This document shows positions 14,703-35,580 of a stretch of 62,588 bases of DNA, piece after piece; positions within the stretch are counted from its first letter, which is position 1; every line of letters begins with the position of its first letter. Location of the stretch: assembly GCA_021810245.1 (NCBI GenBank), contig JAJZJF010000004.1, positions 1 through 62,588 on the forward strand. Direction: 5' to 3'. The notes below the pieces were generated by a model. The model was not told the origin of the DNA. It did not search any database and worked only from the letters and a program-made list of their open reading frames with translations. The stretch comes from a bacterium. Lineage in GTDB: Bacteria; Elusimicrobiota; Elusimicrobia; UBA1565; UBA9628. Position numbers and translations under genes: made by a program.

Positions 14703-14703
14703 C

Positions 14704-15309: not shown

Positions 15310-15320
15310 TTGGAGGCAAT

Positions 15321-15871: not shown

Positions 15872-16086
15872 GATTTTGGGTCCCCTTAGTCAATCAAATC
15901 GCGCGGCCTTCTCTTGCTTGCGCGGTTTGTTTTGGCGCGAAAGGTTCTCCTGAACTTTTGCGCGGGCTTATCATCAGCGGGGTGATTTTGCTGGCCTTTG
16001 TCTTTTCGATTTTAGCGGTTCTTGTTAAAACGGTCTATGATATGGAAGTTCGCAAAAATGCGGCTGACGCCCCTCGCCTTTCATGA
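15868..16086 (+). CDS. small membrane protein with N-terminal CxxC, unknown function
   Basis: 72-aa ORF with overlapping stop/start on both sides. CAVCFG motif followed by one TM helix. Confidence 0.5.
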   Translation: MRFWVPLVNQIARPSLACAVCFGAKGSPELLRGLIISGVILLAFVFSILAVLVKTVYDMEVRKNAADAPRLS

Positions 16087-17788: not shown

Positions 17789-17789
17789 A

Positions 17790-21306: not shown

Positions 21307-21335
21307 TTGACAGTCCTCTTCTTGTCCGTTACACT
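21307..21335 (+). promoter_or_regulatory. sigma70-type promoter of pilin cassette 1
   Basis: TTGACA (21307-21312), 17-nt spacer, TACACT (21330-21335). The GTTACACTT context is shared with the cassette 2 promoter. Confidence 0.65.
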
Positions 21336-21356
21336 TTAGACGTTAGGCGCCTCAAA

Positions 21357-24011
21357 GTGAAACAATCCTCGGGAATTTCCGTTATAGAACTGATGGTCAC
21401 CGTGGCTTTAATCGCCATCGGGGCGATGGCTTTTATCAGCGCTTTTCAGGGCATTAACCGCGCGCTACAATCGGCGAGGATGCGGACCATTGCGACCAAT
21501 TTAGCGCAGGAAGAAGTCGAATATCTGAAAAATTTTTCTTATTACACTCTCTTGGTTACAACCTCAACTTCTATCAATAGCGATTTCAGTCCAAGCCTGA
21601 GTTATGACAATGCCTCTTATCCGCCTCAGAGCTTTAGTTATTGGGGAAATTCTCTTACTCGCGCGGTTTACATTCAATATGCGACCCCGGTCAATGGGCA
21701 GATGCAGACCTTGCCTTATACCGCCAATGATCCCGGGCTAAAAATGATTACCGTTTACGTCTGGTGGAATGACGGAGCCGGTTGGCGGGAAGTGGAGATG
21801 CAAAATCTGCTGGAAAACCCCAATGTCTCGACTTTAAATTCTCAGATTACCGGTTTTGTTTATGACTCTTCTTCTGGCAATAGCCCTTTATCTGGAGCGA
21901 TTGTCAGCGTTTTGGGCAGTCCGCAGTGGAATACGGAATCTTCCTTAAACGGGAGCTTTAGCTTAAGCGTTGCCGCTGGGTCTTATACTGTTGTTGCCTC
22001 ATCCATTGGATTTTTCTCCGCCTCTTCTCCTCTTTTATCCGCGCCCTCGGGCGGATCTGTGAGCCAAAATTTTTACTTAACTCAGATGGCTTCCGGGACG
22101 GTTGTCGCCAACAGCGTCTATTTCTCTGGAAATGTCCTCATTAGTCAAATCGTGGCCGACACAAAAACCGTGGTTGGCGACGGCAGCGCCCAAGATGTCC
22201 AGTATGTCGAGCTTTTTAACCCAACGACAGGAGTTGTCTCGGTGGCAAGCGATATCTCCGGGCCGGGATGCGCTAATTCCGTCACGCCCTTCATTCAAAT
22301 GAACTATTATTGCGGAAATGGGGCTAGTTGTACCTCAAGCGATCAAGCCCCTATCGCCCTTTGTTATATTTCCTCATCCGTTGAGTCCGGCTCCTATTAC
22401 TTGATTGCCAATACCACGGAAACTTTTACCGTGGCGGGAGAAACCGTTTCCCCCGACGCTTATTTCAAGAATAATTATTATCCCGATGATAACTGGCCCA
22501 CGACGGAGATCATTCAAGCGGGTCATGCCGGAGTGGTTCAGATTCAAGGCCCTGGCGCTGTGGGAAGCGGCGTAATTGATGAAGTCGGTTGGTCCAACAC
22601 CGCCAATGGACATAACCCTGTTTTGGCTTGGGGTAACCCCATCCCTCAAAAAGGCGGAATCCAAAGTGGAGACCAGATTGTCCGGATGTCGAGCCCTTGT
22701 GCGGTCATTGCCGGTTTAGGGCGGGCCTATGATACCCAGGATAACGCCGATAATTTTGGATATGACACCACAGGAGTGGGGGGGAGTTATTTTTTAAACC
22801 CGGCATATGACACTTTGTCTTCCACTCAGACCGTGATTTCCGGAGATCCCGCCATTGGCGGATACGCGTCTGCCGATGATGGGCTTTCCGCGCCGAGCCC
22901 GATCTTTGAACTGCTTTTACCCAATTCTTTTGATCCCACTCCGCCTGCTGGATATTGTCCCTATGCGAGTTTTAATTTGACCAATGTCGCGACGGGAACC
23001 TGGACGGTGGTAGTCGCAAGCGGCGCTTATCAACAGAGTATTTCCAGCGTTACTATTTCTTATTCCGGGCAAACTATTTCCGTCCTCAATTCTTTCACCG
23101 CGCCGGTTTCTTCTTTCGCTCCTGTTGGATTTTTGCCGCTTTCTTCCGCCGCCTTGGGCGGATATATCGCCGGGACGGTGACGAGCGTTCAGGGAACTCC
23201 TCTTAGCGGAATTACCGTTTTAGGCGGGGCTTCTAGCGCACTGACTAATTCATCGGGGTTTTATTTTCTTTCTTCCTCGACCGGTACGGCCGCCTTGGGA
23301 ACCGCCGTGTCCTTGTCAGTCAACCCCAATCAGCAAAACCCGCTTTATGTGAGCGCAACAGCTTCGGTCAATGTCTATTCTGGAGAGGTGACGGTTCAGA
23401 ATTTTACCCTTTCTCAGGGCGGGGAAATCATCGGCTATGCGACGAGCGGCCTTTCGGTTTTGCCTGGCATCGTTTTTGTCGCCTCTAACACCGAAACTAC
23501 CCAGGCCGGGACTACCGATGACACCGGGCATTTTTATATCCCGAATTTAACCACCGGGACTTATACGGTTATTCCGCAGCTTTCTTCAGGGCAAACCTCA
23601 AGCCCGGCCCAGGCTTCTGTCAATGTGGGCAGCGGAAATCTGGAAGTTTTTTCCGCGAGTTTTACCATTTCCGGAATCATGGGAACTTTTAGTGGAACTG
23701 TTTCGGCGGGCGGCAATCCCGTGACTACGGGAGTGATCATTATGGCTTCGACGGGTACGCTCTCTTATCCGCCGCCCAACATCACTGGATCCGGCGCGGG
23801 GCAAATTTATTATGCGACGATGAGTCAGCCCGATGGCAGCTATTCCTTGCCGGTCAGGGGAAGCAACTCTTCGACTACGTACACCTACAATCTTTTGGCG
23901 ATCTACCCTTCGGTTGACGAAGGAAATGGAGCGGTCAGCGTTGTTTCTCAAACGCAGTCCGGCTCTGTCAATGCCGGACAAACCCAGGCGGTTAATTTTA
24001 CCGGATTATGA
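21357..24011 (+). CDS. giant prepilin-type (PilV-like) protein with lamin-tail domain and CarboxypepD_reg-like repeats
   Basis: 884 aa. N-terminal class-III signal / N-methylation motif G-ISVIELMVTVALIAIG, then a PilV-like segment (IATNLAQEEVEYL). Beta-sandwich repeats (ITGFVYD..GAIVSV..GSFSLSVAAGSYTVVASSIGF). LTD signature VLISQIV...VQYVELFNPT. Confidence 0.8.
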   Translation: MKQSSGISVIELMVTVALIAIGAMAFISAFQGINRALQSARMRTIATNLAQEEVEYLKNFSYYTLLVTTSTSINSDFSPSLSYDNASYPPQSFSYWGNSLTRAVYIQYATPVNGQMQTLPYTANDPGLKMITVYVWWNDGAGWREVEMQNLLENPNVSTLNSQITGFVYDSSSGNSPLSGAIVSVLGSPQWNTESSLNGSFSLSVAAGSYTVVASSIGFFSASSPLLSAPSGGSVSQNFYLTQMASGTVVANSVYFSGNVLISQIVADTKTVVGDGSAQDVQYVELFNPTTGVVSVASDISGPGCANSVTPFIQMNYYCGNGASCTSSDQAPIALCYISSSVESGSYYLIANTTETFTVAGETVSPDAYFKNNYYPDDNWPTTEIIQAGHAGVVQIQGPGAVGSGVIDEVGWSNTANGHNPVLAWGNPIPQKGGIQSGDQIVRMSSPCAVIAGLGRAYDTQDNADNFGYDTTGVGGSYFLNPAYDTLSSTQTVISGDPAIGGYASADDGLSAPSPIFELLLPNSFDPTPPAGYCPYASFNLTNVATGTWTVVVASGAYQQSISSVTISYSGQTISVLNSFTAPVSSFAPVGFLPLSSAALGGYIAGTVTSVQGTPLSGITVLGGASSALTNSSGFYFLSSSTGTAALGTAVSLSVNPNQQNPLYVSATASVNVYSGEVTVQNFTLSQGGEIIGYATSGLSVLPGIVFVASNTETTQAGTTDDTGHFYIPNLTTGTYTVIPQLSSGQTSSPAQASVNVGSGNLEVFSASFTISGIMGTFSGTVSAGGNPVTTGVIIMASTGTLSYPPPNITGSGAGQIYYATMSQPDGSYSLPVRGSNSSTTYTYNLLAIYPSVDEGNGAVSVVSQTQSGSVNAGQTQAVNFTGL

Positions 24012-24514
24012 AATATCTTGGAGGCTGGCGGTTTCGCGGAGGATATACCCTCATAGAAATCATGGTAACGGTCGCGATCGTGTCGGTCGTGGCCGCTTTG
24101 ATTTCTCCTTTGTTGACTAATATGACGAGTTTTTGGCGGCTGACCCAGGCTCGAGCGGTCATTGAACGAGACGCCCGCGTGTCCATGGACTTAATGAACC
24201 GCGCCATTCGTCAAGCGCAGAGTTCGACGATTCTTATCTCTAATTATCCGCAACAACCACCCTATTCCGCCATCAGCTTTACCGATATCAAGGGAAATTC
24301 GGTCTCTTTCTATCAACAGGGAAATTATCTCTACGAAAAATTCAACACCACCATCTCGATGTTGACGAAAAATTTAGAATTCGTTTCTTTTACTTTTCCA
24401 GACAGCTCGGACCCCGGCATTTTGTCGGTGGCGATGACGACCCAGAAAAGCACCTATTTGGGCCGCAGCAAGGCTTTGGAGCTGTCTATCGAAGAAGTGC
24501 GGGTAATGAACTGA
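24008..24514 (+). CDS. pseudopilin / minor pilin (prepilin-type N-terminal domain)
   Basis: 168 aa. GGYTLIEIMVTVAIVSVVAAL motif with Glu at +5. Start overlaps the upstream stop. Confidence 0.8.
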   Translation: MKYLGGWRFRGGYTLIEIMVTVAIVSVVAALISPLLTNMTSFWRLTQARAVIERDARVSMDLMNRAIRQAQSSTILISNYPQQPPYSAISFTDIKGNSVSFYQQGNYLYEKFNTTISMLTKNLEFVSFTFPDSSDPGILSVAMTTQKSTYLGRSKALELSIEEVRVMN

Positions 24515-25779
24515 TGAAAAATTTATCGAAGAATCAGTCGCCTGGACAAATTTCAATTGGAGCGATGGCTCTTTTGGTTGGACTGATGATTTTAGGCGCC
24601 GCGATGGTTTCTTATATTGTCTATGAATCAAAATGGACCGTCAAGGAACAGAAAACGACCACGGCCTTTCAGTTGGCCGAAGCCGCGACCGAGCGCGGCT
24701 ATTGGGAGATCAGCCAATTGAGCTCTCCAACGGCCAATATTCCCATTGCCGGATATAATTTTGACCAGGAATATAACGACCTTGCCGGCGGGGCCTACGC
24801 GATTCAAATCTCCAGCGACTCCTCAAGCGATATCATCATCACCGGCATCGGACGGGACAATCTAAAAAAGGAAACTCGTGAAATTCAGTCTTTATATGAA
24901 AATGGGGGCGGCGGAAAAAACGCGATCGTCGGCGGAGGAGGGGTGGATGAGAGCGGAACGAATATGCATGTTGAGTGGGGGGCGATTATCAGCCAAAGTT
25001 CGATGACAGCGAATTCTTCAAGGCTTCACCCGTCGTTGTGGAGCAGCGGCGAAATCGCGCCTTTTGATACCAGCAATACTCCGCCTAACTGCGATTCTCC
25101 CAATTGTTGGTGGTGGCATGCTTATGACTCTAATTTGCCTCCGATGCCTTCTCTTAACTTCAATTATTATGAGAATCTGGCCCAGTCCGAGGGCGCCAGT
25201 CCTTGCGGCGGCAGTTACTACACCAACGGGAATCGATCGGGGGGCTGTAATGATTTAAGCGGGAACACTTATTACGTAACCGGCAACTGGACTTCGTTTG
25301 ACGGCCCTATAACGGGCAATGTCATTGTGTTGGGAGACGTGACGACTCCTAATGGAGCTCTTAGCGGAGCATCCATTAATGCTCCCATGCCGCAAAACGC
25401 ATGGGCGCAATACTGCAATGATTGGAATTTTTATCTAACGACTTATAACGACACCTACGCCCAATCTCACTATCCAAGCAATTGTCCGGGGCTCAGCAGC
25501 AGTTATTTGTCCTCGCCTTCCATCACCTATTCCATCAGTCCGGCCGTTCAAGGGCTTCTTTATGTGGGAGGCGATTTTACCGGGCCCAACGGCGGAGGAA
25601 ATAGCGTTCTTGTGTTTGGAGTTTTAATGGTCGCCGGAAAGGTCCATCTCAATTCTAATTCCCACGTCGCTGTTTATTATGACGCGAATGTCGGCAATAA
25701 TCTTAAGGTTACCAAGACCAGCTACTCGCGGGTTTCATGGAAGGAAATTCAGCCGGTCTGGCCAAGTGGGCTGCCGTAA
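24514..25779 (+). CDS. PilX-like large pseudopilin
   Basis: 421 aa. N-terminal hydrophobic helix without Glu5. PilX_N-like TTAFQLAEAATERGYWE. Gly/Asn/Trp/Cys-rich C-terminal region. Confidence 0.7.
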   Translation: MKNLSKNQSPGQISIGAMALLVGLMILGAAMVSYIVYESKWTVKEQKTTTAFQLAEAATERGYWEISQLSSPTANIPIAGYNFDQEYNDLAGGAYAIQISSDSSSDIIITGIGRDNLKKETREIQSLYENGGGGKNAIVGGGGVDESGTNMHVEWGAIISQSSMTANSSRLHPSLWSSGEIAPFDTSNTPPNCDSPNCWWWHAYDSNLPPMPSLNFNYYENLAQSEGASPCGGSYYTNGNRSGGCNDLSGNTYYVTGNWTSFDGPITGNVIVLGDVTTPNGALSGASINAPMPQNAWAQYCNDWNFYLTTYNDTYAQSHYPSNCPGLSSSYLSSPSITYSISPAVQGLLYVGGDFTGPNGGGNSVLVFGVLMVAGKVHLNSNSHVAVYYDANVGNNLKVTKTSYSRVSWKEIQPVWPSGLP

Positions 25780-25843
25780 CCAATCGCCAAAAAGATAGAA
25801 TGGTCTGCACAGTTTATAAAAATCGTTAGCGAGGATTCAGGAC

Positions 25844-26392
25844 GTGGAATTTGAACTTGTCCTTGGAAAGCTTTTAGAGGGATTTGAAGAACGCGGCATC
25901 CGCTATGCGGCCATTGGAGGCTACGCCCTGGGTTTCTGGGGAGTTTCCCGCGCGACCGGGGATGTTGATTTTATCGTCCTTAAAGAAGATGTGGAAAAAC
26001 TTGATTTACTGATGGCCTCTCTTGGCTATAAGCGGATATTCTTTAGCGACAACGTCTCCCAATATCAGGGAGATATATTTCCCGTTTGGGGTTATGTCGA
26101 TTTTCTTCACGCCTTTAGGCCCTTGGGCTTGCGCATCGTTGAAGAGGCCGTCGAAAAAAGGATTTTTGACAAAAAAATTAAAATCGCCTGCCCAGAAGAT
26201 ATTATCGGGCTCAAACTTCAGGCGCTTTGCAATTCCGAACCTGGGAGCCGGGATCAAGACAGTGTTGATATTAAGTCTTTAGTCAAGGCGAATTGCGGTT
26301 CTCTGGATTGGAGCCGAGTTGAAGAATACTATAAAATTTTTGGCATGGAAGCCGCGTATAAGGCATTGAAGGATCAATTTTGTGTTCAGTAA
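25844..26392 (+). CDS. putative nucleotidyltransferase-fold protein
   Basis: 182 aa. GTG start with GAGGA 9 nt upstream. IGGYALGFWGVSRATGDVDFIV resembles the GG...R.T.D.D motif of the AbiEii/DUF-type NTase families. Confidence 0.5.
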   Translation: MEFELVLGKLLEGFEERGIRYAAIGGYALGFWGVSRATGDVDFIVLKEDVEKLDLLMASLGYKRIFFSDNVSQYQGDIFPVWGYVDFLHAFRPLGLRIVEEAVEKRIFDKKIKIACPEDIIGLKLQALCNSEPGSRDQDSVDIKSLVKANCGSLDWSRVEEYYKIFGMEAAYKALKDQFCVQ

Positions 26393-26588
26393 AGAAGAGA
26401 AGCTCGGTTTTCTGGAAGATGCGCAGTCGTTAGAACGCCGAAAGGATTTTGATCGGATGCGAGAAAACGTTTTTTCTCGCCGATGGACTCCTGAAGAGCA
26501 TGCGTCATTTCTAACGGCGATGAGCCGACATTTCGGGAGCCAAATTAGACATCCGATTCCCGTAGACAACGGGAAGTTCCTCATTTAG
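26382..26588 (+). CDS. hypothetical small protein
   Basis: 68-aa ORF overlapping the upstream gene by 11 nt. Its TAG stop is the first triplet of repeat copy A. Confidence 0.4.
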   Translation: MFSKEEKLGFLEDAQSLERRKDFDRMRENVFSRRWTPEEHASFLTAMSRHFGSQIRHPIPVDNGKFLI

Positions 26589-26680
26589 GCACTTTCGCCG
26601 TCGCCAACAGCTTTTCCCAAGCAAAATCTCGAAATACCTCTAGGCCTTTTGCCGGAAGCCCTCTAGGTCCTTGGGCCCAT
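26586..26680 (+). repeat. 95-bp intergenic repeat, copy A (3' element plus TAGG promoter module, copy 3)
   Basis: TAGGCACTTTCGCCGTCGCCAACAGCTTTTCCCAAGCAAAATCTCGAAATACCTCTAGGCCTTTTGCCGGAAGCCCTCTAGGTCCTTGGGCCCA. About 90 percent identical by eye to copy B. TAGG at 26641 and 26664. TATTCT at 26702-26707 is 38 nt from the proximal TAGG. Confidence 0.85.
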
Positions 26681-26714
26681 GCGAGAAATAAAGATGCGTG
26701 ATATTCTCTTTATG

Positions 26715-27269
26715 ATGCAACATAAAGAACATGGAGGAGTAAAGATGCAAAACAAAAAAAAGTTGATGGGAGTTATCTACTTTTTGACAATGTCAATGTC
26801 CCTATCGTTCCCCTCTCAGGCTGCAAATATCGGAGGCGATGCCGCTTTTGCTAAGGATATTCAAAATGACTTTAAAGCGATTAATGCAAGAGTTCTTTCC
26901 CTAAAAGAGAGTGCCCGGCATGAGGATAAAAGGGCGGTTAGCAATCAAATTCTCAATACGAAATCGCTTAAAGATACATCTGTTAAAATGGCTAATCCAC
27001 AACAAGAATCCCAGTCATTCAATATAGAAACCTATACACATCTCCCATTGTGCGTAAAAAGTAACACTGCCAATGCAGTTTCAGTAGTTTTCTCTTTGCC
27101 GCCTAACGCAGGGAATAGTTGCATCGCAAATTTTGAGCTGACAGGTGACGGGGGACTCTGTTGGCAGGTTTGTTCTGAAGACTGCAATGGGAGTGGCGCC
27201 TGTTGGTTGTCGTGTACCTATCATTGCACCACTCAGGGGGGAGAGGGGGATCCGAGAAAACATGGATAA
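26715..27269 (+). CDS. secreted cysteine-rich protein, unknown function
   Basis: Signal peptide KKLMGVIYFLTMSMSLSFPSQA. The last ~70 aa contain 9 Cys (CIANFELTGDGGLCWQVCSEDCNGSGACWLSCTYHC). Start is ambiguous: ATG 26715 lies 7 nt after TATTCT (leaderless), and ATG 26745 has a GGAGG RBS. Confidence 0.65.
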   Translation: MQHKEHGGVKMQNKKKLMGVIYFLTMSMSLSFPSQAANIGGDAAFAKDIQNDFKAINARVLSLKESARHEDKRAVSNQILNTKSLKDTSVKMANPQQESQSFNIETYTHLPLCVKSNTANAVSVVFSLPPNAGNSCIANFELTGDGGLCWQVCSEDCNGSGACWLSCTYHCTTQGGEGDPRKHG

Positions 27270-27297
27270 GTTAATCTCTTTCTAGTTAGAGTATTTT

Positions 27298-28089
27298 GTG
27301 GCAGTATCAGTGGTAGGGAAAAGGAGAGTTCTTATCCGCAAGGAATTAGCAGAACTTGCGGTGTTTTTCTTTGTTATTCTCCTCCCGGCTATATCATCGA
27401 GTTTCCACTCTCTTTTCCTTAAACAACAAGGTTTTGATTACGCGAACTTATATTCTCCGTGGGGATTTTTTAATCAAATTCAAGCGAGCATTCCTCTTGG
27501 CCTTCTTGCCGCTTTTTTATTGGTCTACGGGGATCATGATCCGTCTTATTTAGCTCTCCGTTCCAGTAAATTATCCGTCATTAGACAAATTATGGCGGGT
27601 GTAGGGCTCTGGTTTGTCTATTATCTTTTCTTCACTCTCTGGGATGTTGTCGCCGCTCTCGCTCAAATCCATGTCCCTCATATTAATTTTCATTCCGCAA
27701 CCCCTCTTCCTCAGGAGACCATGCTGAATGGCGTGTTTGCTTTAGTCAACGGCATTTCTGAAGAGGTTATGCGGGTATACCTTCTAGCCCAAATTGGGAA
27801 ACTAACGACGCGGCGTTGGGCGGTAATCCTTATAACCGCAATTTTGATTTCTTCCTATCATTCTTATCAAGGCGGGTTTACCCTGATTGCTTTTCTTGTT
27901 GCCAATATTTTTCTGAGTTCTTTCTACCTCTCTTCCCAATCTCTCTTGGCGCTTTGTGTGTGGCATATCTTGGCCGATTTTTCGCATCCGACGGCTCTTA
28001 TGGGCTGGAATGTGCTCAGTGGATTCATTGGAGGTTCTTTCATCATAGGAACTAGCTGGGTTTTTGGCCATCTGGGGATAAAGATTTAA
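27298..28089 (+). CDS. CPBP family intramembrane glutamic endopeptidase (CAAX protease/Abi-like)
   Basis: Polytopic membrane protein with the CPBP motifs EEVMRVY (EExxxR), SSYHSYQG and WHILADF (HxxxD). Confidence 0.75.
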   Translation: MAVSVVGKRRVLIRKELAELAVFFFVILLPAISSSFHSLFLKQQGFDYANLYSPWGFFNQIQASIPLGLLAAFLLVYGDHDPSYLALRSSKLSVIRQIMAGVGLWFVYYLFFTLWDVVAALAQIHVPHINFHSATPLPQETMLNGVFALVNGISEEVMRVYLLAQIGKLTTRRWAVILITAILISSYHSYQGGFTLIAFLVANIFLSSFYLSSQSLLALCVWHILADFSHPTALMGWNVLSGFIGGSFIIGTSWVFGHLGIKI

Positions 28090-28115
28090 GCCCCTCACCT
28101 TTCTGGACACTACAC

Positions 28116-28210
28116 TAGGCGCTTTCGCCGTCGCCAACAGCTTTTCCCAAGCGAAATCTCGAAATACCTCTAGGCCTTTTGCCGGAAACCTTCTAGGCCC
28201 TTTGGCCCAT
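28116..28210 (+). repeat. 95-bp intergenic repeat, copy B (3' element plus TAGG promoter module, copy 4)
   Basis: Same element as copy A. TAGG at 28171 and 28194. It is 38 nt to TACAAT (28232-28237), then 7 nt to ATG 28245. Confidence 0.85.
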
Positions 28211-28244
28211 CCATATTTTATGGGCGTGGCATACAATAAGGGTC

Positions 28245-29564: not shown

Positions 29565-29570
29565 TAGCCC

Positions 29571-30446
29571 ATGAAAAAAATCGCGCCGATATTTTTCAGC
29601 TTTTGCATCGCGCTCGGCGCGGGAATTTTCATTTGGGCGATGCGCCATCCCCATGCGCCGGTTTTGTCGCCTGATGTTCGGAGCAAACACCCCAGCGTCT
29701 CGGCTCAAAAGGGGCCGCTCAAACTAACCCTGACTCTTTATTCCGATAAGGTTCCGAGAAATGGACCGCTCTGGTTTCGCCTGACCGTGACCAATGTCGG
29801 CAAAAAACCGTTTACGATTGACGATCCTTTGTTTGCCCCGTATTTTTTAGATGATGGGGAAAATCTCATCGATTATTTAAGCGACCCCTTCAAGAAAAAG
29901 AATTCGTTCCATTTAGTCGTCCTTGATGATAAAGGAAGGGAAGTCGCTCAAAAATACCAGACCGTTTGGGCGATGGAAATGGACCCTTGTATTGGATTTC
30001 CCGACAATTCATTTGAGAGCGAACTCCTGTCCAAGGCTCAACGCCGCAAGTCAAGAGCCCAATTTAAGGAACGGGCTATTGCGGAGAAAGATTTTAAGGC
30101 TAATTGGAAACGCCTTGTGAGTCCCGGAAGCTCCATCGAAACAATCGCCTGGTCTTATCACGGCTACTGCAAGGGCGAGCGCAAAAACCCTCCGATTCCG
30201 CCGGGGCGTTTCGCCGAATTTTACGGCTTGGACCTAAGTCGCCCCGGGCATTACCGCATCTTTGCCGGCCTCAACCACGTTCCAACGAAAAAGGAGTTGG
30301 AAGAGAAAAAAAAGGAAGATCAGGATGCGTTGGAAGTTGATAAGAAAATGGGCTGGAAATCCGATTGGTATGGAAGGAAGTCCATTCCCCGTGCGGAGGA
30401 CGCCGTTATTCAAACGCCGCCCATTGATTTCGAGGTTCTCCCATGA
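29571..30446 (+). CDS. hypothetical membrane-anchored protein
   Basis: 291 aa. N-terminal TM IAPIFFSFCIALGAGIFIWA. No recognisable domain. Confidence 0.6.
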   Translation: MKKIAPIFFSFCIALGAGIFIWAMRHPHAPVLSPDVRSKHPSVSAQKGPLKLTLTLYSDKVPRNGPLWFRLTVTNVGKKPFTIDDPLFAPYFLDDGENLIDYLSDPFKKKNSFHLVVLDDKGREVAQKYQTVWAMEMDPCIGFPDNSFESELLSKAQRRKSRAQFKERAIAEKDFKANWKRLVSPGSSIETIAWSYHGYCKGERKNPPIPPGRFAEFYGLDLSRPGHYRIFAGLNHVPTKKELEEKKKEDQDALEVDKKMGWKSDWYGRKSIPRAEDAVIQTPPIDFEVLP

Positions 30447-30949
30447 GATATTTTTTGATTTTCTATATTTCTCTCATGGGGGTTTCTCCCGCGCTTGCCC
30501 TCTCATTTCATGCGCCCAAATCAGATAAGGAGAGATATGAATTTCAACTGGCTGAAAAGTACTTGTCCAAAATCAAGGAAATAAATAACGATCTTGAGGA
30601 TAACAAAAACAAGAAGAAAAGTTTAAGCGACGCGGAAATCGAGAAAGACAAAATCCAGCGCCAGATGATTGAGGAATACACGATCAAGGCGGTGATCGCG
30701 GCTTATGGAATTAAGCCAAAACATGAAACAGGAACGCTTTATCTTGGGCAGCTCTCGGGCAGCCAGGCCGTTCGGTGGGACCCTGTTTTGAGCGAGCGGC
30801 GACAATCGTGCGCGGCATCTCCGCTCCGTTTGTCGCGGTTGGAAATTCCATCACTGTCCTATCGCCCGGGAATTCCGGCGGCTCAAATTTCCAATATCAT
30901 GCCGGGCTTGCGGACAGCCAATTGCGCGGAATCGCGAGCGGGAGCATGA
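30443..30949 (+). CDS. hypothetical exported protein, possibly frameshifted
   Basis: Signal-like N-terminus MRYFLIFYISLMGVSPALA. After about codon 110 the frame becomes Arg/Ser/Pro-rich, while the overlapping frame 30775..30969 reads more protein-like. Confidence 0.45.
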   Translation: MRYFLIFYISLMGVSPALALSFHAPKSDKERYEFQLAEKYLSKIKEINNDLEDNKNKKKSLSDAEIEKDKIQRQMIEEYTIKAVIAAYGIKPKHETGTLYLGQLSGSQAVRWDPVLSERRQSCAASPLRLSRLEIPSLSYRPGIPAAQISNIMPGLRTANCAESRAGA

Positions 30950-30966
30950 GTTTTGACGGTGGAGTG

Positions 30967-31012
30967 TAGGCGCTTTCGCCGTCGCCAACAGCTTTTCCCA
31001 AGCGAAATCTCG
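30967..31012 (+). repeat. intergenic repeat, partial copy C (3' element only)
   Basis: TAGGCGCTTTCGCCGTCGCCAACAGCTTTTCCCAAGCGAAATCTCG is identical to the first 46 nt of copy B. It lies between convergent genes. Confidence 0.85.
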
Positions 31013-31016
31013 GTCT

Positions 31017-32507
31017 TTACGGCCACGCCTGCGGCTTGATGTCTTGCCAATCGGTTTGGACCAAGACCACATTTAAAGTTGGAACTTGAAGTTGGTCGTT
31101 GTAGAAAATACCGCAGAAACTGCTCAGACAATTCGGGTCTCCCGAGGGACAGCTGGCGATGACGGATCCTCCCACCCAAACCGCGCCGTTAAAATCCATA
31201 AAATTCTTGATGATGAGATTGCCGCCGACATAGGTAAATCCCCTGATCCCTACGGTGTTGACCCAGCCGCAGGTCATCGTATTGGGGGGATGGCTTGGAA
31301 AACAAAATGAATTGGTTCCGAAAGCCCAGGTGGTAGCGCTTTGGTGGTATCCAATATCGGCGGGATATTCCCCACTGGCCGGAGTGTCATAGCGGGTTTC
31401 CGTAAATTTCTGATCCTGCTCCCAGGCGTTGGTTGGAACATGTCCGGTATAATCGTAATCGCCCCCGCTATCAATCGTTAGATTTCCACGCACGATGACT
31501 GTTCCTCTCAGGCCAGTGTCTAACCCGGCAGACGGCGCGGCCCCTTGTCCGGCAAAGGTGACGTCTCCATCCCAATACCAGACATAATCGGTATTCGGCT
31601 GATTTTGAGGCGAGAATGGATGATTCCAGGAATTTCCAAAATGACAAGAAGAACCGTAACAGGCTCCTCCAGTTCCAGAATAGTGCGGAGAGCCGGATTG
31701 ACAATGGCCGCGATTGTCCCAAGGCGCTCTTCCCGACATATTGGCCCCGGTTGTGGGATCGGTATAACGGGTACTGTCTCTACAGCCATAGACGTTGAGG
31801 GTATGGGTCGCGGCAGCGGAAGAGCGGAGAGCGGCGAAATCAAGTATGGGCAATTCTGGAACCTTGGCATAATTGGCCCACCATTCGATGCCGTCAGTAT
31901 TGGGGGGCAGAGGCCAGGTCGTGTCGCGCGGATTATTAGTGGTTCCGATAACGTCTCCTCTTGCGTATTTTTGCGGAAAATACCATTGGGCGGTGGTGTT
32001 GTCAAGCGTGATATTGCTTTGGGAAATAATAGGGCCCCAGAAAATGCTGATGCCTTTATTGTAATTGACGTTTCCCTGGGTCAAAAGCGGGCTATAGACC
32101 GTTTCATTTTGAAAAACCGCTTCGATTTCTCGCAGTTCATTATTGGAATTATCGCGTCCTTCTCCGAAAATGGTAATCCCCCCGTTGGCGGCCGAGGTAA
32201 TGAGAATTCGGTAAGTTCCGCCGGGGATATCGCTGTAGGTTTTGTCGAATTGATATCCTGGAAACGCGATTCCGGAAGACATCTCCGCGAAAGTTCCAGT
32301 TGAGCTTTTAGCCTTCCAATAGCCGCGATTGACGGCCGCTTCGGCGAGATTTAAAGCCGTGGTTGATTTCTGGTTTTTAACCGAGGTCCGCGCTTCCGTC
32401 TGAACCCATTGGACCACCGCCGGCACAATCGCCAAGAGGAGAAGCATTAAAAGGAGAGCCCCAACCAAGACCTGGCCGCGCTTTTGTGCCCAAAGGTTTT
32501 TTCTCAT
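31017..32507 (-). CDS. PilX-like large pseudopilin (paralogue of 24514..25779)
   Basis: 496 aa. N-terminal helix VLVGALLLMLLLLAIV. PilX_N-like STTALNLAEAAVNRGYWK. Shares ...REIEAVF / REIQSLY and the C-terminal layout with the cassette 1 protein. Confidence 0.7.
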   Translation of the reverse strand: MRKNLWAQKRGQVLVGALLLMLLLLAIVPAVVQWVQTEARTSVKNQKSTTALNLAEAAVNRGYWKAKSSTGTFAEMSSGIAFPGYQFDKTYSDIPGGTYRILITSAANGGITIFGEGRDNSNNELREIEAVFQNETVYSPLLTQGNVNYNKGISIFWGPIISQSNITLDNTTAQWYFPQKYARGDVIGTTNNPRDTTWPLPPNTDGIEWWANYAKVPELPILDFAALRSSAAATHTLNVYGCRDSTRYTDPTTGANMSGRAPWDNRGHCQSGSPHYSGTGGACYGSSCHFGNSWNHPFSPQNQPNTDYVWYWDGDVTFAGQGAAPSAGLDTGLRGTVIVRGNLTIDSGGDYDYTGHVPTNAWEQDQKFTETRYDTPASGEYPADIGYHQSATTWAFGTNSFCFPSHPPNTMTCGWVNTVGIRGFTYVGGNLIIKNFMDFNGAVWVGGSVIASCPSGDPNCLSSFCGIFYNDQLQVPTLNVVLVQTDWQDIKPQAWP

Positions 32508-32508
32508 G

Positions 32509-33000
32509 TTAATTCATGACCTCGACTTCTTCAGACGCCATATGAAGGGCTTTGCTCCCTCCTTGGTAAATTCCGGATTGAAAGGTGACCGACACGGAAA
32601 TAATATTCATATCATCGGATCGCGGGAAAGTGAACGCGAGATAGATGAGGTCTTTGGATAAGACCTTGGTCATATTGCCCGACTGCATCTCAAGAAGATT
32701 ACCATTTTGGAAAAAGCTCATGGTCGTTCCCTGGGAGGTGGTAAAACTGATCTGGGAATAATAAGGTTGGCTTGAGGAATAGCGGCTAAGCGTAATTGTC
32801 GAACTCTGCGCTTGCCTTAGATTGCGGGTAATCACGTAGAGAATACTCCGGCCTTCTTCTTGGAGTTGAACCTTCGCGTTAGACAACATAAAGTAGCGAT
32901 TGGCTTCTATGGTGATCCCAGCTCCGACAGAAATCAGGGTTCCGACAATGGCAAGCGTGATCATCGCTTCAAGCAGGCTAAATCCGTTTTTTTTCACCAT
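32509..33000 (-). CDS. pseudopilin / minor pilin (paralogue of 24008..24514)
   Basis: 163 aa. Classical prepilin motif KNG-FSLLEAMITLAIVGTLI. Ends ...EEVEVMN versus ...EEVRVMN in the paralogue. Confidence 0.85.
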   Translation of the reverse strand: MVKKNGFSLLEAMITLAIVGTLISVGAGITIEANRYFMLSNAKVQLQEEGRSILYVITRNLRQAQSSTITLSRYSSSQPYYSQISFTTSQGTTMSFFQNGNLLEMQSGNMTKVLSKDLIYLAFTFPRSDDMNIISVSVTFQSGIYQGGSKALHMASEEVEVMN

Positions 33001-35546
33001 GATAGATTTTGTCCCGAGACTGTTTGGCCTTGCAGTATGGAAACGTTAGACAACGATTGGGTGACGACGCTAATGGCCCCCGAAGGCAAAATTTCCGGAT
33101 AATATCCGTAGACATTGTAAGCTGGAGAGGTGCTTTGCCTGACTTGGAGGCTAAAGGTCCCATCTTCCTTGCTTGAAGTCGAGTAGTAAGAGATTCCGGT
33201 TAAAGATGCGGAGCTAAGATTGGGCGGGCCGCTGGGCAAGGTATCGGTCGTCACCACGATCAGAACGCCGGTGGATATGGGGTTTCCCTTGTAAGTCACG
33301 TTCCCGCTGATCGTTCCCAAGGCCCCGGTGATGGTAAATGTTCCCACGAAAACAGTTTGGCCTGAAAGAGCGTTGGCCGAAACGACCACGGGATTTGAAA
33401 CCTCAGTGCTGTCGAGCGGAATGCGCACGGTATAGGTTCCCGTGGCAAGGTTGACCGTTTGGAAATGCCCGGTGGCATCGGTCACTTCTTGATCTTGAGT
33501 GTTTCCATTAGAATCAATGGCGCTCATGGGAATTCCCTCAAGACCGTTGATTCCGTCCCGGGTCACCCATCCGCTGAGCCGGCCGCCTTGGGTCAGAGTA
33601 AAGTTGATCCCGCTTTCAATTTGACCCGGCAAGACCGTGATGGCATTAGAAGACATTGAAACATAATTGGCGTTCAGGGAAGATGGGTTAGCCGTGACAT
33701 CGGTCATTCCACTGGAAACGCGCAATAAATATCTTCCAGTTGAAACGTTAGCGAAGCTATCTGATCCCGCGGCGGAAACTTCGATGGCGGTCGGTATTGA
33801 AATGGGATTGCCGTTGGCGTCGGTCACGGTTCCCGAGATAAAGCCGGAATTGGGAGTTTGATTGAGAATGCTCATCGTGCTTGGAAAAACATAGACGGAA
33901 TTGGAAGCGGCGATGGTGACGCTGTCATTTTCCGTCTCGTAAGATGAACTGGTAATCACCACGCTCCAGGTTCCGGTCGCCACATTAATGAGGTTGAAAG
34001 CGGCCGCCGGAGGATTCCCGGAAATAAATGCCTCGGTTGAGGAAGAGAGCCCGTCATTCGATGTGATGACCGCCCCAATGGCGGGAACTCCCGCGATGAC
34101 GGTTGTGCCAGGAAGCAAGGAATCATTAGGCGGATATTGGATGCCTATCGTAGACAAGGCCGGATTGGCGTTTCCGGGATAGGCGAAATCAGCGGCATTG
34201 TTTCCGGAATTATAGGCGCGCCCAAATGCGGCGCTCGCGAAAGCGGGGCTCGATGTCCTCACGATTTCTTGTCCGGCCGCAAGCCCGCCGCTGGGCTGCG
34301 GGATGCAGGTTCCATTACAGTAACTAGGATTATGCGTTGATCCGTTGTTGGTCCATCCCACCGCGTCTATCGTGTTTCCGGAAGCATTCGTTATCCAGAT
34401 CGTTCCACTGTGTCCGCGCGCCATGATGTCTTCCGCCGAGGGCGGAGTCCAGTTGTAAGCGGAAGGCGTGCAGCTGAGATTGGCGTTATCGGCGTAATAG
34501 GCGTCGGCGGAAATTGAACTACCGTCAACCGTAAAGGTCGCGGTGTTGGCGATTAAATAATACTCCTCCGGCGCGATATTATCCGTGACGTAGGTCAAGG
34601 GGATGTTGGAGCATTGGGTGGCATTATAGCCGGAAACGTAGTTGAGTTCGATATTTCCGTTAATTGCGATTGTATTAGTCGTCGGATTGAAGAGTTCGAC
34701 ATATTCCACGTCATAGTCATTGGCTTGGGGGGTTGAAACGACGATTTGACTGATGACGAGATTTGGCTCAATCCAAGCGTCTCCAGTGACTGTTCCAGAA
34801 CTCATCGGAGTCAGGGAAAAATTGACCGTGATGGTGTTGTTCGCGGGAACGGATTGAAAAGAATACCCCGTGAAATATCCCGGGGCGGAGGCGACTAAGT
34901 TAAAACTTCCGGGAGACAGCGAAATCGAATAGAGGCCGGAGGCATTGGTTAAGCTGCTCCAACCGAGATCTTCGGCGACGTCTACGTTGGCGCCGGCGAT
35001 AGGGTTTCCCGTTGTCGCGTCCGAGACAGTTCCGGTCAGTGAAGAATTTGCCTCCACGGTATCCGGGTTGGACATCACGCTGTTTAAGGAAAGATATTGC
35101 GTTTGACTGTCTTGAGTCCAGGTGACGGTGACGGTAATTTGGCGCATTCCCGTGTCCGGAGTGGTCGGGGGGAGAGTCGTCAATGTCCCATTTTTATCCA
35201 TCACCACTTGAATATCGGTGTAGCGCGTAAAATTAACCCCGCCTTCAAGGAGCGTTTCCGGAGGGAAATTGACCGTATCGTAAGGCGTTCCATTGGACAA
35301 AAAAGAAGGGTTAAGAGTTGGAATGACGTTAGGGTAGGACTCCTCTTCTATGATTTGAATCTGTTCCTGCGCGAGGTTGGCGGCGAGGGTTTTATCCCGA
35401 GACATTTGAATTGAACGCTGAACATCCCGAAAAGACGCGACCAGCCCTAAAGTCGCCACTGAAAGAATGCCCAAGGCGATCATCATTTCAACCAGGCTTG
35501 CCCCGCCCTGGCTTTTTAAGGCATTTTCGCCTTTTAAATGCCCCAT
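32994..35546 (-). CDS. giant prepilin-type (PilV-like) protein with lamin-tail domain and CarboxypepD_reg-like repeats (paralogue of 21357..24011)
   Basis: 850 aa. GG-ASLVEMMIALGILSV, LAANLAQEQIQII, LTGTVSD..GANVDV..GLYSISLSPGSFNLVASAPGY. LTD signature LVISQIV...VEYVELFNPT. Confidence 0.8.
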   Translation of the reverse strand: MGHLKGENALKSQGGASLVEMMIALGILSVATLGLVASFRDVQRSIQMSRDKTLAANLAQEQIQIIEEESYPNVIPTLNPSFLSNGTPYDTVNFPPETLLEGGVNFTRYTDIQVVMDKNGTLTTLPPTTPDTGMRQITVTVTWTQDSQTQYLSLNSVMSNPDTVEANSSLTGTVSDATTGNPIAGANVDVAEDLGWSSLTNASGLYSISLSPGSFNLVASAPGYFTGYSFQSVPANNTITVNFSLTPMSSGTVTGDAWIEPNLVISQIVVSTPQANDYDVEYVELFNPTTNTIAINGNIELNYVSGYNATQCSNIPLTYVTDNIAPEEYYLIANTATFTVDGSSISADAYYADNANLSCTPSAYNWTPPSAEDIMARGHSGTIWITNASGNTIDAVGWTNNGSTHNPSYCNGTCIPQPSGGLAAGQEIVRTSSPAFASAAFGRAYNSGNNAADFAYPGNANPALSTIGIQYPPNDSLLPGTTVIAGVPAIGAVITSNDGLSSSTEAFISGNPPAAAFNLINVATGTWSVVITSSSYETENDSVTIAASNSVYVFPSTMSILNQTPNSGFISGTVTDANGNPISIPTAIEVSAAGSDSFANVSTGRYLLRVSSGMTDVTANPSSLNANYVSMSSNAITVLPGQIESGINFTLTQGGRLSGWVTRDGINGLEGIPMSAIDSNGNTQDQEVTDATGHFQTVNLATGTYTVRIPLDSTEVSNPVVVSANALSGQTVFVGTFTITGALGTISGNVTYKGNPISTGVLIVVTTDTLPSGPPNLSSASLTGISYYSTSSKEDGTFSLQVRQSTSPAYNVYGYYPEILPSGAISVVTQSLSNVSILQGQTVSGQNLSW

Positions 35547-35552
35547 CTTAGA

Positions 35553-35580
35553 AGTGTAACAGACAAATATCGGAAGTCAA
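35553..35580 (-). promoter_or_regulatory. sigma70-type promoter of pilin cassette 2 (apparently leaderless)
   Basis: On the minus strand: TTGACT (35580-35575), 16-nt spacer, TACACT (35558-35553), then TCTAAG and ATG at 35546. Confidence 0.65.

What the first reader, a model, noticed from the sequence alone, without database searches (positions are those of the whole stretch)
21307..35580. Two convergent paralogous cassettes encoding giant prepilin-type proteins: candidate alternative pilus-tip/adhesin modules on a tRNA-flanked island
Seen in sequence:
- Cassette 1 is on the plus strand: 21357-24011 (884 aa), 24008-24514 (168 aa), 24514-25779 (421 aa).
- Cassette 2 is on the minus strand: 32994-35546 (850 aa), 32509-33000 (163 aa), 31017-32507 (496 aa).
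- Both have the same gene order, overlapping or abutting stop/start codons, and near-identical promoters.
- Gene 1 of each starts with a prepilin-type leader and hydrophobic helix (G-ISVIELMVTVALIAIG; G-ASLVEMMIALGILSV) and a PilV-like segment. It then continues for about 700 aa through CarboxypepD_reg-like sandwiches and a lamin-tail domain.
- Gene 2 is a classical small pseudopilin (G-FSLLEAMITLAIVG).
- Gene 3 has a PilX_N-like motif (TTA[FL]xLAEAAxxRGYW) without Glu5, and a Gly/Asn/Trp/Cys-rich C-terminal body.

Established knowledge: PilV/W/X-type or GspI/J/K-type minor pilins form the tip-priming complex of type IV pili and T2SS pseudopili, and are normally small (roughly 15-35 kDa).

Inference:
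- These look like two interchangeable tip complexes in which the PilV-like subunit has been expanded several-fold into an adhesin or ligand-binding fibre.
- No major pilin, ATPase, platform protein, secretin or prepilin peptidase is in the window, so the machinery must be encoded elsewhere.
- The segment sits between tRNA-Lys/tRNA-Glu and dapB, so it looks like an accessory island.
Basis: partly seen in the sequence, partly recalled or inferred. Interest (0 to 1): 0.85.

Follow-up and report, generated by a model that had tools for sequence, protein, structure and literature searches.

The report
Two minor-pilin tip cassettes in Elusimicrobiota
Two three-gene cassettes in an Elusimicrobiota genome most likely each encode the tip complex of a type IV pilus-like filament, an 850-880 aa PilV-like pilin carrying a long beta-sandwich stalk, a small pseudopilin and a ComZ-like cap pilin; both cassette types are ancient and conserved across the phylum, so this is a lineage-specific variant of a known design, not a new kind of system.

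Summary
All six ORFs, their overlapping junctions and the two sigma-70-like promoters are at the stated coordinates, and the three gene pairs are real paralogues (35-39% identity).

Gene 1 is a modular pilin. It has a PilV/GspI/ComGE-class pilin module (aa 1-155), then CarboxypepD_reg, lamin-tail and more beta-sandwich domains. Gene 2 is a canonical 157-aa (mature) pseudopilin. Gene 3 lacks Glu5, and its high-confidence AlphaFold model (pLDDT 91.6) matches only ComZ, the tip pilin of Thermus thermophilus.

The trio occurs only in Elusimicrobiota. It was found in 43 species-level loci, almost always in the same order. NJ trees of gene 1 and gene 3 agree and split into two old clades, A (cassette 1) and B (cassette 2). 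Several genomes carry both.

The "accessory island" reading is only partly right. In other lineages the trio sits among housekeeping genes (nrd, tmk, holB, metG). In the window's close relatives, only cassette B, the spacer and the flanking defence genes vary.

No filament machinery lies in the window or next to the trio elsewhere, so the filament type and the ligand are still inferred. Modular pilins, ComZ-like caps and multiple minor-pilin sets are already known. Verdict: a new variant of a known kind, of moderate interest.

The parts
21307..21335 (+). Promoter of cassette A (TTGACA-17-TACACT)
   Evidence: Best sigma-70-like site in the region, 10 of 12 matches. -35 and -10 are conserved in orthologous loci L004, L005 and L007.
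21357..24011 (+). Gene 1A: 884-aa modular PilV/GspI-class prepilin, with leader MKQSSG|ISVIE
   Evidence: - ORF.
- Pfam: CarboxypepD_reg x3, fn3_3, weak N_methyl and LTD.
- PilV, ComGE and GspI N-terminal hits.
- AF2 pLDDT 81.5: helix 9-58, sheet 71-153, then all-beta domains.
- Foldseek matches tandem Ig/CnaB-type stalks of surface adhesins.
21357..21821 (+). Gene 1A pilin module (aa 1-155)
   Evidence: AF2 secondary structure, with a low-pLDDT linker at 156-159. Family alignment A7. 25 of 28 members hit TIGR02523 PilV and NF041013 ComGE; 20 of 28 hit GspI.
21843..24008 (+). Gene 1A extension (aa 163-884): CarboxypepD_reg #1, LTD-like domain (about aa 246-470), then four further beta-sandwiches
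   Evidence: Pfam, AF2 and Foldseek hits to B. anthracis TIE 6FWV, sortase-pilin CnaB domains, SdrD and teneurin TTR. The protein is acidic and 24% Ser/Thr.
24008..24514 (+). Gene 2A: 168-aa pseudopilin, with leader ...RFRGG|YTLIE
   Evidence: N_methyl 28.6 bits (cut-off 21.2) and TIGR02532 26.8 bits (cut-off 16.3). Mature length of about 157 aa is constant across loci. The start overlaps the gene 1 stop (ATGA).
24514..25779 (+). Gene 3A: 421-aa ComZ-like cap pilin without Glu5
   Evidence: - AF2 pLDDT 91.6, pTM 0.78: helix 10-67, four strands 82-130, then a large beta-rich body.
- Foldseek against PDB: only ComZ 6QVI is significant (E 1.5e-5, prob 0.99).
- G11-Q12 conserved, no E5, invariant A55-E56.
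- TGATG junction with gene 2.
31017..32507 (-). Gene 3B: 496-aa paralogue of gene 3A (clade B)
   Evidence: 35% identity to gene 3A over the N-terminal 220 aa. PilX_N E 0.0065 and ComGG E 0.01. Clade B in the gene 3 tree.
32509..33000 (-). Gene 2B: 163-aa pseudopilin, with leader MVKKNG|FSLLE
   Evidence: N_methyl 25.3 bits and TIGR02532 22 bits. 39% identity to gene 2A.
32994..35546 (-). Gene 1B: 850-aa modular PilV/GspI-class prepilin, with leader ...KSQGG|ASLVE
   Evidence: CarboxypepD_reg x3 (E 3e-23), LTD 37.1 bits (above cut-off), SdrD_B and SpaA. ComGE E 5e-8 and GspI E 4e-5. 37% identity to gene 1A over the full length.
35553..35580 (-). Promoter of cassette B (TTGACT-16-TACACT). The -10 lies 6 nt before the ATG.
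   Evidence: The arrangement TAYACT-TCTAAG-ATGGG is conserved in L004 and L007, which suggests a leaderless or very short-leader mRNA (inference).

Best explanation
Each cassette encodes a three-subunit minor-pilin complex that primes, and then caps, a type IV filament. The filament is most likely a surface type IV pilus whose motor, platform, secretin, prepilin peptidase and major pilin are encoded elsewhere.

- **Gene 3** is the GspK/PilX/ComZ-class cap. It has a hydrophobic N-terminal helix without Glu5 and a pilin sheet carrying a bulky beta-rich (solenoid-like) body that can only sit at the filament end.
- **Gene 2** is a small canonical pseudopilin that packs beneath the cap.
- **Gene 1** is the PilV/GspI/ComGE-class subunit. 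Its pilin module anchors in the tip, and a flexible stalk of about 730 aa hangs from it. The stalk has CarboxypepD_reg, lamin-tail and CnaB-like beta-sandwich domains. It probably binds a surface or glycan ligand, taking the adhesin role that PilY1/PilC plays in Proteobacteria.
- **Stoichiometry.** Translational coupling should give equimolar subunits.
- **Two sets.** Types A and B are ancient, co-evolved sets. They probably give the same machine two tips with different specificities, or two different filaments.

**Shown:** gene structure, paralogy, class III signals, pilin folds, ComZ-like structure, phylum-wide co-conservation, and two clades.

**Inferred:** tip location, assembly order, adhesin role, ligand, and which machine is used.
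For: - **Class III signals.** A basic leader followed by G|[VYF][ST]L[IVT]E is conserved in genes 1 and 2 in every locus. Gene 2 passes the N_methyl and TIGR02532 cut-offs.
- **Class of gene 1.** 25 of 28 gene 1 pilin modules hit PilV and ComGE models, and 20 of 28 hit GspI.
- **Pilin folds.** AF2 gives an alpha1 helix plus a beta-sheet in gene 1 and gene 3.
- **Gene 3 resembles a known tip pilin.**
  - It lacks Glu5, and its only significant PDB match is ComZ.
  - ComZ is argued to be tip-located, is GspK-like and binds a GspI-like partner (PMC6561018).
  - Cyanobacterial PilX proteins have the same solenoid design and are proposed as a PilY1 substitute.
- **Gene 1 extension.** It consists of adhesin-stalk-type beta-sandwiches. 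PF13620 is among the commonest add-on modules of modular pilins, which are predicted to be tip-exposed.
- **Co-conservation.** Coupled junctions. The trio is kept, almost always in the same order, in 43 Elusimicrobiota loci. The gene 1 and gene 3 trees are congruent.
Against: - No filament machinery or major pilin lies in the window, or among 120 ORFs neighbouring the trio in about 40 other loci. The link to a particular machine is therefore untested.
- There are only three subunits, whereas the canonical core set has four (FimU/GspH class as well).
- The class of gene 2 is ambiguous: GspH, GspJ and GspG all hit weakly, and only over the N-terminus.
- All class-specific profile hits are below the curated cut-offs.
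- TM-scores to ComZ are low (0.20-0.24).
- Gene 2 was not modelled, and no complex prediction was possible.
Confidence: 0.6

Rival explanations
1. The trios are tip complexes of a periplasmic type II secretion pseudopilus (GspI-J-K analogue) rather than of an extracellular pilus. The large gene 1 body would act in the periplasm or secretin vestibule, or be released.
For: Hits to GspI/XpsI (20 and 12 of 28) and weak hits to GspH/J/G. A trio of I-, J- and K-like subunits matches the GspIJK trimer. The ComZ pilin domain is closest to GspK. Some sources label homologues 'type II secretory pathway pseudopilin PulG'.
Against: - A beads-on-a-string stalk of about 730 aa, made of adhesin-type sandwiches, has no precedent or obvious role on a pseudopilus that stays inside the secretin.
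- PilV and ComGE models hit as often as GspI.
- No gsp genes are adjacent in any locus.
Confidence: 0.13
2. At least one cassette is a competence-pilus DNA receptor, by analogy with ComZ/PilA2 of Thermus and the cyanobacterial Com minor-pilin set.
For: - Gene 3 matches only ComZ structurally, and ComZ binds DNA.
- ComGE and ComGG models hit genes 1 and 3 weakly.
- Two minor-pilin sets, one of them for competence, exist in cyanobacteria.
- Competence genes are reported in Endomicrobium (PMC8809381).
- From my own knowledge, not tested here: lamin-tail domains also occur in some extracellular nucleases.
Against: All four large proteins are net acidic. Gene 1A has 14 K+R against 48 D+E, and gene 3A has 18 against 31. 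There are no comEA or comEC neighbours. Structural similarity to ComZ says nothing about the ligand.
Confidence: 0.12
3. The proteins use class III signal peptides only for membrane insertion or anchoring. They form a filament-independent envelope or surface complex, comparable to the archaeal bindosome, in a phylum known for many pilin-like genes.
For: No machinery is linked in any locus. The trio sits among housekeeping and glycosyltransferase genes. Gene 1 N_methyl scores are below the cut-off.
Against: The conserved Glu5 in genes 1 and 2, its specific absence in gene 3, the PilV/GspI-class helix and the ComZ-like cap are the signature of an ordered filament tip, not of simple anchors.
Confidence: 0.1

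Closest known systems
ComZ-PilA2 tip complex of the Thermus thermophilus competence pilus (PDB 6QVI; PMC6561018)
   Same: Gene 3 has a pilin helix and sheet plus a large beta-rich body. It is the only significant Foldseek PDB match. It is encoded next to a GspI/PilV-class pilin, and ComZ was likewise not predicted to be a standard PilD substrate.
   Different: There is no detectable sequence similarity: the gene 3 profile finds nothing in PDB sequences. TM-scores are low. The Thermus locus has pilA1-3, comZ and pilA4, whereas here there is a trio. The GspI-class partner here carries a 730-aa extension. DNA binding is untested and the proteins are acidic.
Cyanobacterial Com and EPS core minor-pilin sets with beta-solenoid PilX (bioRxiv 10.64898/2026.02.12.705559)
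   Same: There are two co-evolving minor-pilin sets per genome, with PilV and PilX subfamilies co-occurring. The solenoid PilX is proposed as a plug that replaces PilY1. Here the gene 1 and gene 3 trees are congruent, with clades A and B.
   Different: The cyanobacterial sets have four families (FimT, PilW, PilV, PilX), whereas here there are three genes. In cyanobacteria the expansion is in PilX (HpsA-like); here the largest protein is the PilV-class subunit. The phylum differs, and no sequence-level link was shown.
Modular type IV pilins such as S. sanguinis PilB (vWA) and PilC (lectin) (PMC8179133)
   Same: [quoted passage not shown] PF13620 (CarboxypepD_reg) is listed among the 15 commonest architectures and is interpreted as carbohydrate-binding-like.
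   Different: Gene 1 carries about six or seven domains (about 730 aa) rather than one module. It includes a lamin-tail domain, is conserved phylum-wide, and always sits in an operon with a cap pilin.
GspI-GspJ-GspK pseudopilus tip and the FimU-PilV-PilW-PilX-PilY1 priming complex (M. xanthus has three such sets; PMC7541494)
   Same: Glu5 is absent from the cap subunit. There is a PilV/GspI-class partner, and genomes carry multiple alternative sets. Tip location and a priming role are the model being borrowed.
   Different: There is no PilY1 beta-propeller and no GspK alpha-domain. A fourth (GspH/FimU-class) gene is missing, and all class-specific scores are below the curated cut-offs.

Membership tests
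Type IV pilins / pseudopilins (class III signal peptide; PF07963, TIGR02532) | Short basic leader, Gly at -1, hydrophobic helix of about 20 aa, and Glu at +5 | tested here: met
   Genes 1 and 2 in the window and in all related loci. Gene 3 has a conserved G11-Q12 and a hydrophobic helix but no Glu5, as expected for the GspK/PilX class.
Type IV pilins / pseudopilins (class III signal peptide; PF07963, TIGR02532) | Profile score above the curated cut-off | tested here: inconclusive
   - Gene 2 passes: 28.6 and 25.3 vs 21.2 bits (Pfam), 26.8 and 22 vs 16.3 bits (TIGR02532).
- Gene 1 falls just short in Pfam (16.8 and 20.0 vs 21.2 bits) and in TIGR02532 (10.2 and 13.2 vs 16.3 bits).
- Even so, 21 of 28 gene 1 family members hit TIGR02532 at E of 0.01 or better, and many homologues carry a precomputed PF07963 hit.
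Type IV pilins / pseudopilins (class III signal peptide; PF07963, TIGR02532) | Pilin fold: a long alpha1 helix packed on an antiparallel beta-sheet | tested here: met
   AF2 gives helix 9-58 and strands 71-153 for gene 1, and helix 10-67 and strands 82-130 for gene 3.
Type IV pilins / pseudopilins (class III signal peptide; PF07963, TIGR02532) | Processing by a prepilin peptidase and assembly by a PilB/GspE-PilC/GspF machine in the same genome | not testable with these tools
   No such genes lie in the 62.6-kb window or next to the trio elsewhere. Whole genomes could not be scanned. The literature reports PilD, Tad-like and PulG-like genes in Endomicrobium and Elusimicrobium.
PilV / GspI / ComGE-class minor pilin (gene 1 pilin module) | Match to TIGR02523, TIGR01707 or NF041013 above the curated cut-off | tested here: not met
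   The hits are consistent but sub-threshold: 25 of 28 members for PilV and ComGE (best E 1.4e-9) and 20 of 28 for GspI. Window scores are 24-33 bits against cut-offs of 44-52. This is a class resemblance, not equivalog membership.
GspK / PilX / ComZ-class cap pilin (gene 3) | Absence of Glu5, with a bulky extra domain inserted in the pilin sheet | tested here: met
   No Glu5. AF2 shows a pilin sheet followed by a beta-rich body of about 270 aa and a terminal strand at 404-412. Foldseek matches ComZ 6QVI with prob 0.99. The exact insertion point was not verified because no coordinates were available.
GspK / PilX / ComZ-class cap pilin (gene 3) | Sequence-profile match (PilX_N PF14341, T2SSK, ComGG) | tested here: not met
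   PilX_N scores 16.9 bits against a cut-off of 25.5, and only in the cassette B copy. Only 5 of 56 family members hit it. ComGG E is 0.01. The profile search of PDB sequences found nothing.
Modular pilins (sensu Raynaud et al. 2021) | An N-terminal pilin module plus at least one domain not specific to type IV pilus biology | tested here: met
   Gene 1 has a pilin module at 1-155 followed by CarboxypepD_reg x3, LTD and SdrD_B/SpaA-like domains. The PF13620 architecture is listed in PMC8179133.
PilY1/PilC tip adhesins | C-terminal PilY1/PilC beta-propeller domain | tested here: not met
   None of the six proteins hits such a domain in Pfam or NCBIfam. The gene 1 model is all beta-sandwich.
Verru_Chthon cassette (TIGR02596-02599) | Full-length match to cassette protein C or D | tested here: not met
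   All 21 gene 2 proteins tested match only positions 1-61 of the 361-position protein C model. The window copy scores 33 bits against a cut-off of 256.5, which is alpha1 similarity only.
Genomic (accessory) island | tRNA-adjacent, atypical composition, mobility genes, and patchy presence among close relatives | tested here: inconclusive
   - The region is tRNA-adjacent, but GC is normal at 0.49-0.52.
- No integrase or transposase was found among the ORFs scanned.
- Cassette A is present in all close relatives examined. Cassette B, the spacer and the flanking defence or R-M genes vary.
- In distant lineages the trio sits among core genes.

The most novel reading that the evidence does not exclude
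Elusimicrobiota replaced the PilY1-type tip adhesin with a PilV-class minor pilin fused to a 700-aa multi-domain stalk. They have also kept, since early in the phylum's history, two co-evolved three-subunit tip sets (A and B). These sets would programme one type IV machine to build two functionally different filaments, for example attachment to particles or other cells versus DNA or polysaccharide capture. This would be a minimal three-subunit priming complex, distinct from the canonical four minor pilins plus PilY1.
Probability: 0.25. Interest if true: 0.6.

Novelty: new variant of a known kind. Interest (0 to 1): 0.45.

Why it matters
Elusimicrobiota are almost entirely uncultured and their surface biology is unknown. 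A phylum-wide, co-evolving trio, present as two ancient types, gives a concrete handle on how these small cells attach to or sense their surroundings.

It also extends the recurring theme that the filament tip, not the shaft, carries functional diversity. In this phylum the PilV-class subunit, rather than PilX or PilY1, is the expanded adhesin carrier, and only three subunits are encoded together.

The gene 3 family has no Pfam model. It has 1,543 cluster representatives at E of 0.001 or better and 203 at 1e-30. Together with the gene 1 architecture, it could be turned into annotation models. At present sources label these proteins 'hypothetical' or 'carboxypeptidase regulatory-like domain-containing protein'.

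Tried and rejected
- **Sequence-profile searches of PDB.** Profiles for gene 2, gene 3 and the gene 1 pilin module gave only alpha1-helix matches or nothing, so they could not assign minor-pilin classes.
- **Class of gene 2.** NCBIfam majority voting for gene 2 was ambiguous between GspH, GspJ and GspG.
- **Taxonomy of distant gene 3 relatives.** Looking up ten representatives returned no names.
- **Insertion topology of gene 3.** I looked for model coordinates to check it; none are exposed.
- **E. minutum genome paper.** My guessed identifier for it (PMC2681670) is not held, so my recollection of many pilin-like genes in that genome is uncited.
- **Linked machinery.** I tested whether T4P machinery is genetically linked to the trio in relatives. 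It is not.
- **Rejected: recent tandem or inverted duplication.** The cassettes are 35-39% identical and fall in separate phylum-wide clades.
- **Rejected: horizontally acquired island.** Composition is normal and the trio has a core-gene context elsewhere.
- **Rejected: Verru_Chthon cassette membership.** The match is N-terminal only.
- **Rejected: PilY1 homology.** No beta-propeller domain is present.
- **Rejected: an enzymatic role for gene 1.** No catalytic domain was found. The CNF1 and MetallophosN hits are sub-threshold fragments inside beta-sandwiches.

Full report
**Observation**

Within each cassette the genes are translationally coupled: ATGA and TGATG overlaps in cassette 1, and a 7-nt overlap and a 1-nt gap in cassette 2.

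The ends of the finding (21307 and 35580) are the -35 hexamers of the two sigma-70-like sites that precede the gene 1 copies. These are TTGACA-17-TACACT (the best site in the region, 10 of 12 matches) and TTGACT-16-TACACT (9 of 12). Both share CTATTGAC and TTGTCyGTTACACTT, and both are conserved in orthologous loci of three related genomes.

The gene pairs are true but old paralogues:
- gene 1: 37% identity over the full length (E 3e-137)
- gene 2: 39% (E 1e-39)
- gene 3: 35% over the N-terminal 220 aa, with a much more divergent C-terminal body that is 75 aa longer in cassette 2

tRNA-Lys and tRNA-Glu precede cassette 1, and dapB follows cassette 2.

**What the proteins are**

*Gene 2* is a canonical pseudopilin. 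N_methyl and TIGR02532 score above their cut-offs. The leader is basic-x-G|[YF][ST]L[IVL]E. The mature length of about 157 aa is constant across the phylum.

*Gene 1* has the same class III signal (G|ISVIE, G|ASLVE), conserved in all homologues. Its first 155 residues are predicted as a pilin module: helix 9-58, strands 71-153, then a low-confidence linker at 156-159.
- Across 28 family members this module hits PilV and ComGE models in 25 and GspI in 20.
- All of these hits are below the curated cut-offs, so this is a class resemblance, not equivalog membership.
- The remaining 730 aa or so are beta-sandwiches: three CarboxypepD_reg stretches, a lamin-tail domain and SdrD_B/SpaA-like domains. 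The lamin-tail domain passes the cut-off in cassette 2; cassette 1 is below it but keeps the YVELFNPT motif.
- The AF2 model (pLDDT 81.5) matches tandem Ig/CnaB stalks of surface adhesins: B. anthracis TIE, sortase pilins, SdrD and teneurin TTR.
- The protein is acidic and 24% Ser/Thr, and no single domain stands out as hypervariable.

*Gene 3* has no Pfam family. PilX_N hits only 5 of 56 members, weakly.
- It has a conserved G-Q followed by a hydrophobic helix without Glu5, and an invariant Ala-Glu in the AFQLAEAA motif.
- Its AF2 model is confident (pLDDT 91.6, pTM 0.78): helix 10-67, four strands at 82-130, then a large beta-rich body.
- Its only significant matches in the PDB are the three chains of ComZ from Thermus thermophilus (E 1.5e-5 to 3.5e-5, prob 0.99). 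The alignments span nearly both proteins, although the TM-scores are low.
- ComZ is a GspK-like pilin with an inserted beta-solenoid. It binds the GspI-like PilA2 and is argued on steric grounds to sit at the pilus tip (PMC6561018).

**Distribution and evolution**

Every named homologue of gene 1 and gene 3 comes from Elusimicrobia, Elusimicrobiota or Endomicrobiia. A scan of one genome per GTDB species gave 43 loci, all Elusimicrobiota or unnamed MAGs.

HMMs built from the three families show gene 1, gene 2 and gene 3 in the same order wherever the contig is long enough. The exception is L040, where gene 3 is transcribed divergently upstream of gene 1.

Copy number varies:
- The relatives with 94% and 84% identical gene 1A (L004, L007) have the same convergent pair as the window.
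- The 82% relatives (L005, L006, L008) have only cassette A, followed directly by dapB.
- L009, L013 and L037 have tandem pairs.
- One MAG has two copies on separate contigs (L025, L036).

Neighbour-joining trees of gene 1 and gene 3 (crude, no bootstrap) are congruent. They split most sequences into clade A (window cassette 1) and clade B (window cassette 2). Each clade spans many species, and both types are present in the window, L004, L007, L013, L037 and the L025/L036 MAG. The duplication is therefore ancient, and each cassette evolves as a unit.

The gene 3 family is large. It has 1,543 cluster representatives (50% identity) at E of 0.001 or better, and 203 at 1e-30.

**Context**

The window is ordinary chromosome. 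It carries an aa3-type cytochrome oxidase operon, dapB, folK, panB, transketolase, trmD, fmt/def, alaS and pfk. GC content is flat.
- No type IV filament machinery and no further class III signal protein is present.
- In other Elusimicrobiota the trio sits among ribonucleotide reductase, tmk, holB, metG, glycosyltransferases and two-component genes.
- None of the 120 neighbouring ORFs scanned produced a secretion ATPase, platform, secretin, PilMNO or A24 peptidase family among the 25 commonest families.

The trio is therefore a core, vertically inherited gene set that is not linked to its machinery. This is usual for T4aP, which is encoded in multiple loci (PMC6668835).

What is variable at the window's tRNA-adjacent site is cassette B, the 5.1-kb spacer and the flanks. 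The spacer (25844-30949) is reduced to an AbiEii-like gene plus a 72-aa ORF in L004, and is absent in L007. The flanks carry a NotI R-M system in L004 and TIR/ThsB/DUF4011 defence genes in L005.

**Mechanism proposed**

I propose this by analogy with GspIJK, with FimU-PilV-PilW-PilX-PilY1 (PMC7541494), with ComZ-PilA2 and with the cyanobacterial sets. Each cassette would make an equimolar three-subunit complex that nucleates filament assembly and ends up at the tip:
- gene 3 as the Glu5-less cap
- gene 2 beneath it
- gene 1 anchored by its PilV-class module, with its beta-sandwich stalk projecting as the adhesin or ligand-binding element

PF13620-bearing modular pilins have been catalogued and interpreted as carbohydrate-binding-like (PMC8179133).

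The A and B sets would give two tip specificities or two filament types. Something similar has been shown for the cyanobacterial Com and EPS sets, whose PilV and PilX subfamilies co-occur.

Tip location, ligand and the identity of the machine are inferred, not shown.

**Rivals**

- *A T2SS pseudopilus tip.* GspI/XpsI hits favour it. The 730-aa stalk and the absence of gsp neighbours argue against it.
- *A competence DNA receptor.* The ComZ analogy favours it. The acidic composition argues against it.
- *A filament-independent anchored complex.* The missing linkage to machinery favours it. The ordered Glu5 pattern argues against it.

**Comparison and novelty**

Every element has precedent: modular pilins, ComZ/PilX-type solenoid caps, and multiple minor-pilin sets per genome.

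The new points are these:
- the particular combination
- its restriction to Elusimicrobiota and its conservation across the phylum
- the expansion affecting the PilV-class subunit rather than PilX or PilY1
- only three subunits being encoded together
- two ancient co-evolved types

I found no paper describing it. I rate it a new variant of a known kind, of moderate interest.

Noticed in passing
window 26679-30949: The 4.3-kb block between the cassettes is absent from the closest relatives L004 and L007. It encodes a 196-aa secreted protein with a Cys-rich C-terminus (CWQVCSEDCNGSGACWLSCTYHC), a CPBP/Rce1-like intramembrane protease (27298-28089) and three signal-peptide proteins with no Pfam family. 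It could be a bacteriocin or immunity-type insert.
   Followed up: partly
window 25844-26392: A nucleotidyltransferase of the NTP_transf_5 / AbiEii / DUF2204 type lies directly after cassette A. It is conserved at the same place in L004 (185 aa). No partner antitoxin was identified.
   Followed up: no
window 35553-35546 and L004, L007 equivalents: The -10 hexamer of cassette B ends only 6 nt before the annotated ATG. The arrangement TAYACT-TCTAAG-ATGGG is conserved in two relatives. This suggests a leaderless mRNA for gene 1B, whereas cassette A has a leader of about 21 nt before a GTG start.
   Followed up: partly
L004 19943-22619; L005 1-9757: In relatives, the same tRNA-to-dapB neighbourhood carries a NotI-type restriction-modification pair (L004), or TIR/ThsB (Thoeris-like) genes, a 1687-aa DUF4011 helicase and a DUF1016 protein (L005). 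It looks like a defence-gene hotspot flanking the conserved cassette A.
   Followed up: no
window 12160-18485: A complete aa3-type cytochrome c oxidase operon is present: COX2, COX1, COX3, CtaA, a UbiA-family prenyltransferase (CtaB-like by position in the operon) and a dihaem cytochrome c. It is conserved in L004, which indicates aerobic respiration in this Elusimicrobiota lineage.
   Followed up: no
L040 6562-15505: This locus has an atypical arrangement of two tandem units in which gene 3 is transcribed divergently upstream of gene 1 and gene 2: g3(-) g1(+) g2(+), twice. The association is kept although the gene order is not.
   Followed up: no
L048 5970-6428 (-); L021 13806-14852 (+): These are the only other class III signal ORFs found near any trio. 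One is a 130-aa (mature) major-pilin-sized protein transcribed divergently upstream of gene 1 in L048. The other is a 252-aa pilin-like protein downstream in L021.
   Followed up: no
L001, L002 and about 40 further loci: Synteny of ribonucleotide reductase, the trio, tmk, holB and metG recurs. Glycosyltransferases (GT2, GT4, GT9, PMT_2) are often adjacent. Given that gene 1 is 24% Ser/Thr, O-glycosylation of the stalk is conceivable but untested.
   Followed up: no
window 11518-12114: A 198-aa ORF upstream of the cox operon hits the eukaryote-typical Cys_rich_FGFR repeat (E 9e-8).
   Followed up: no
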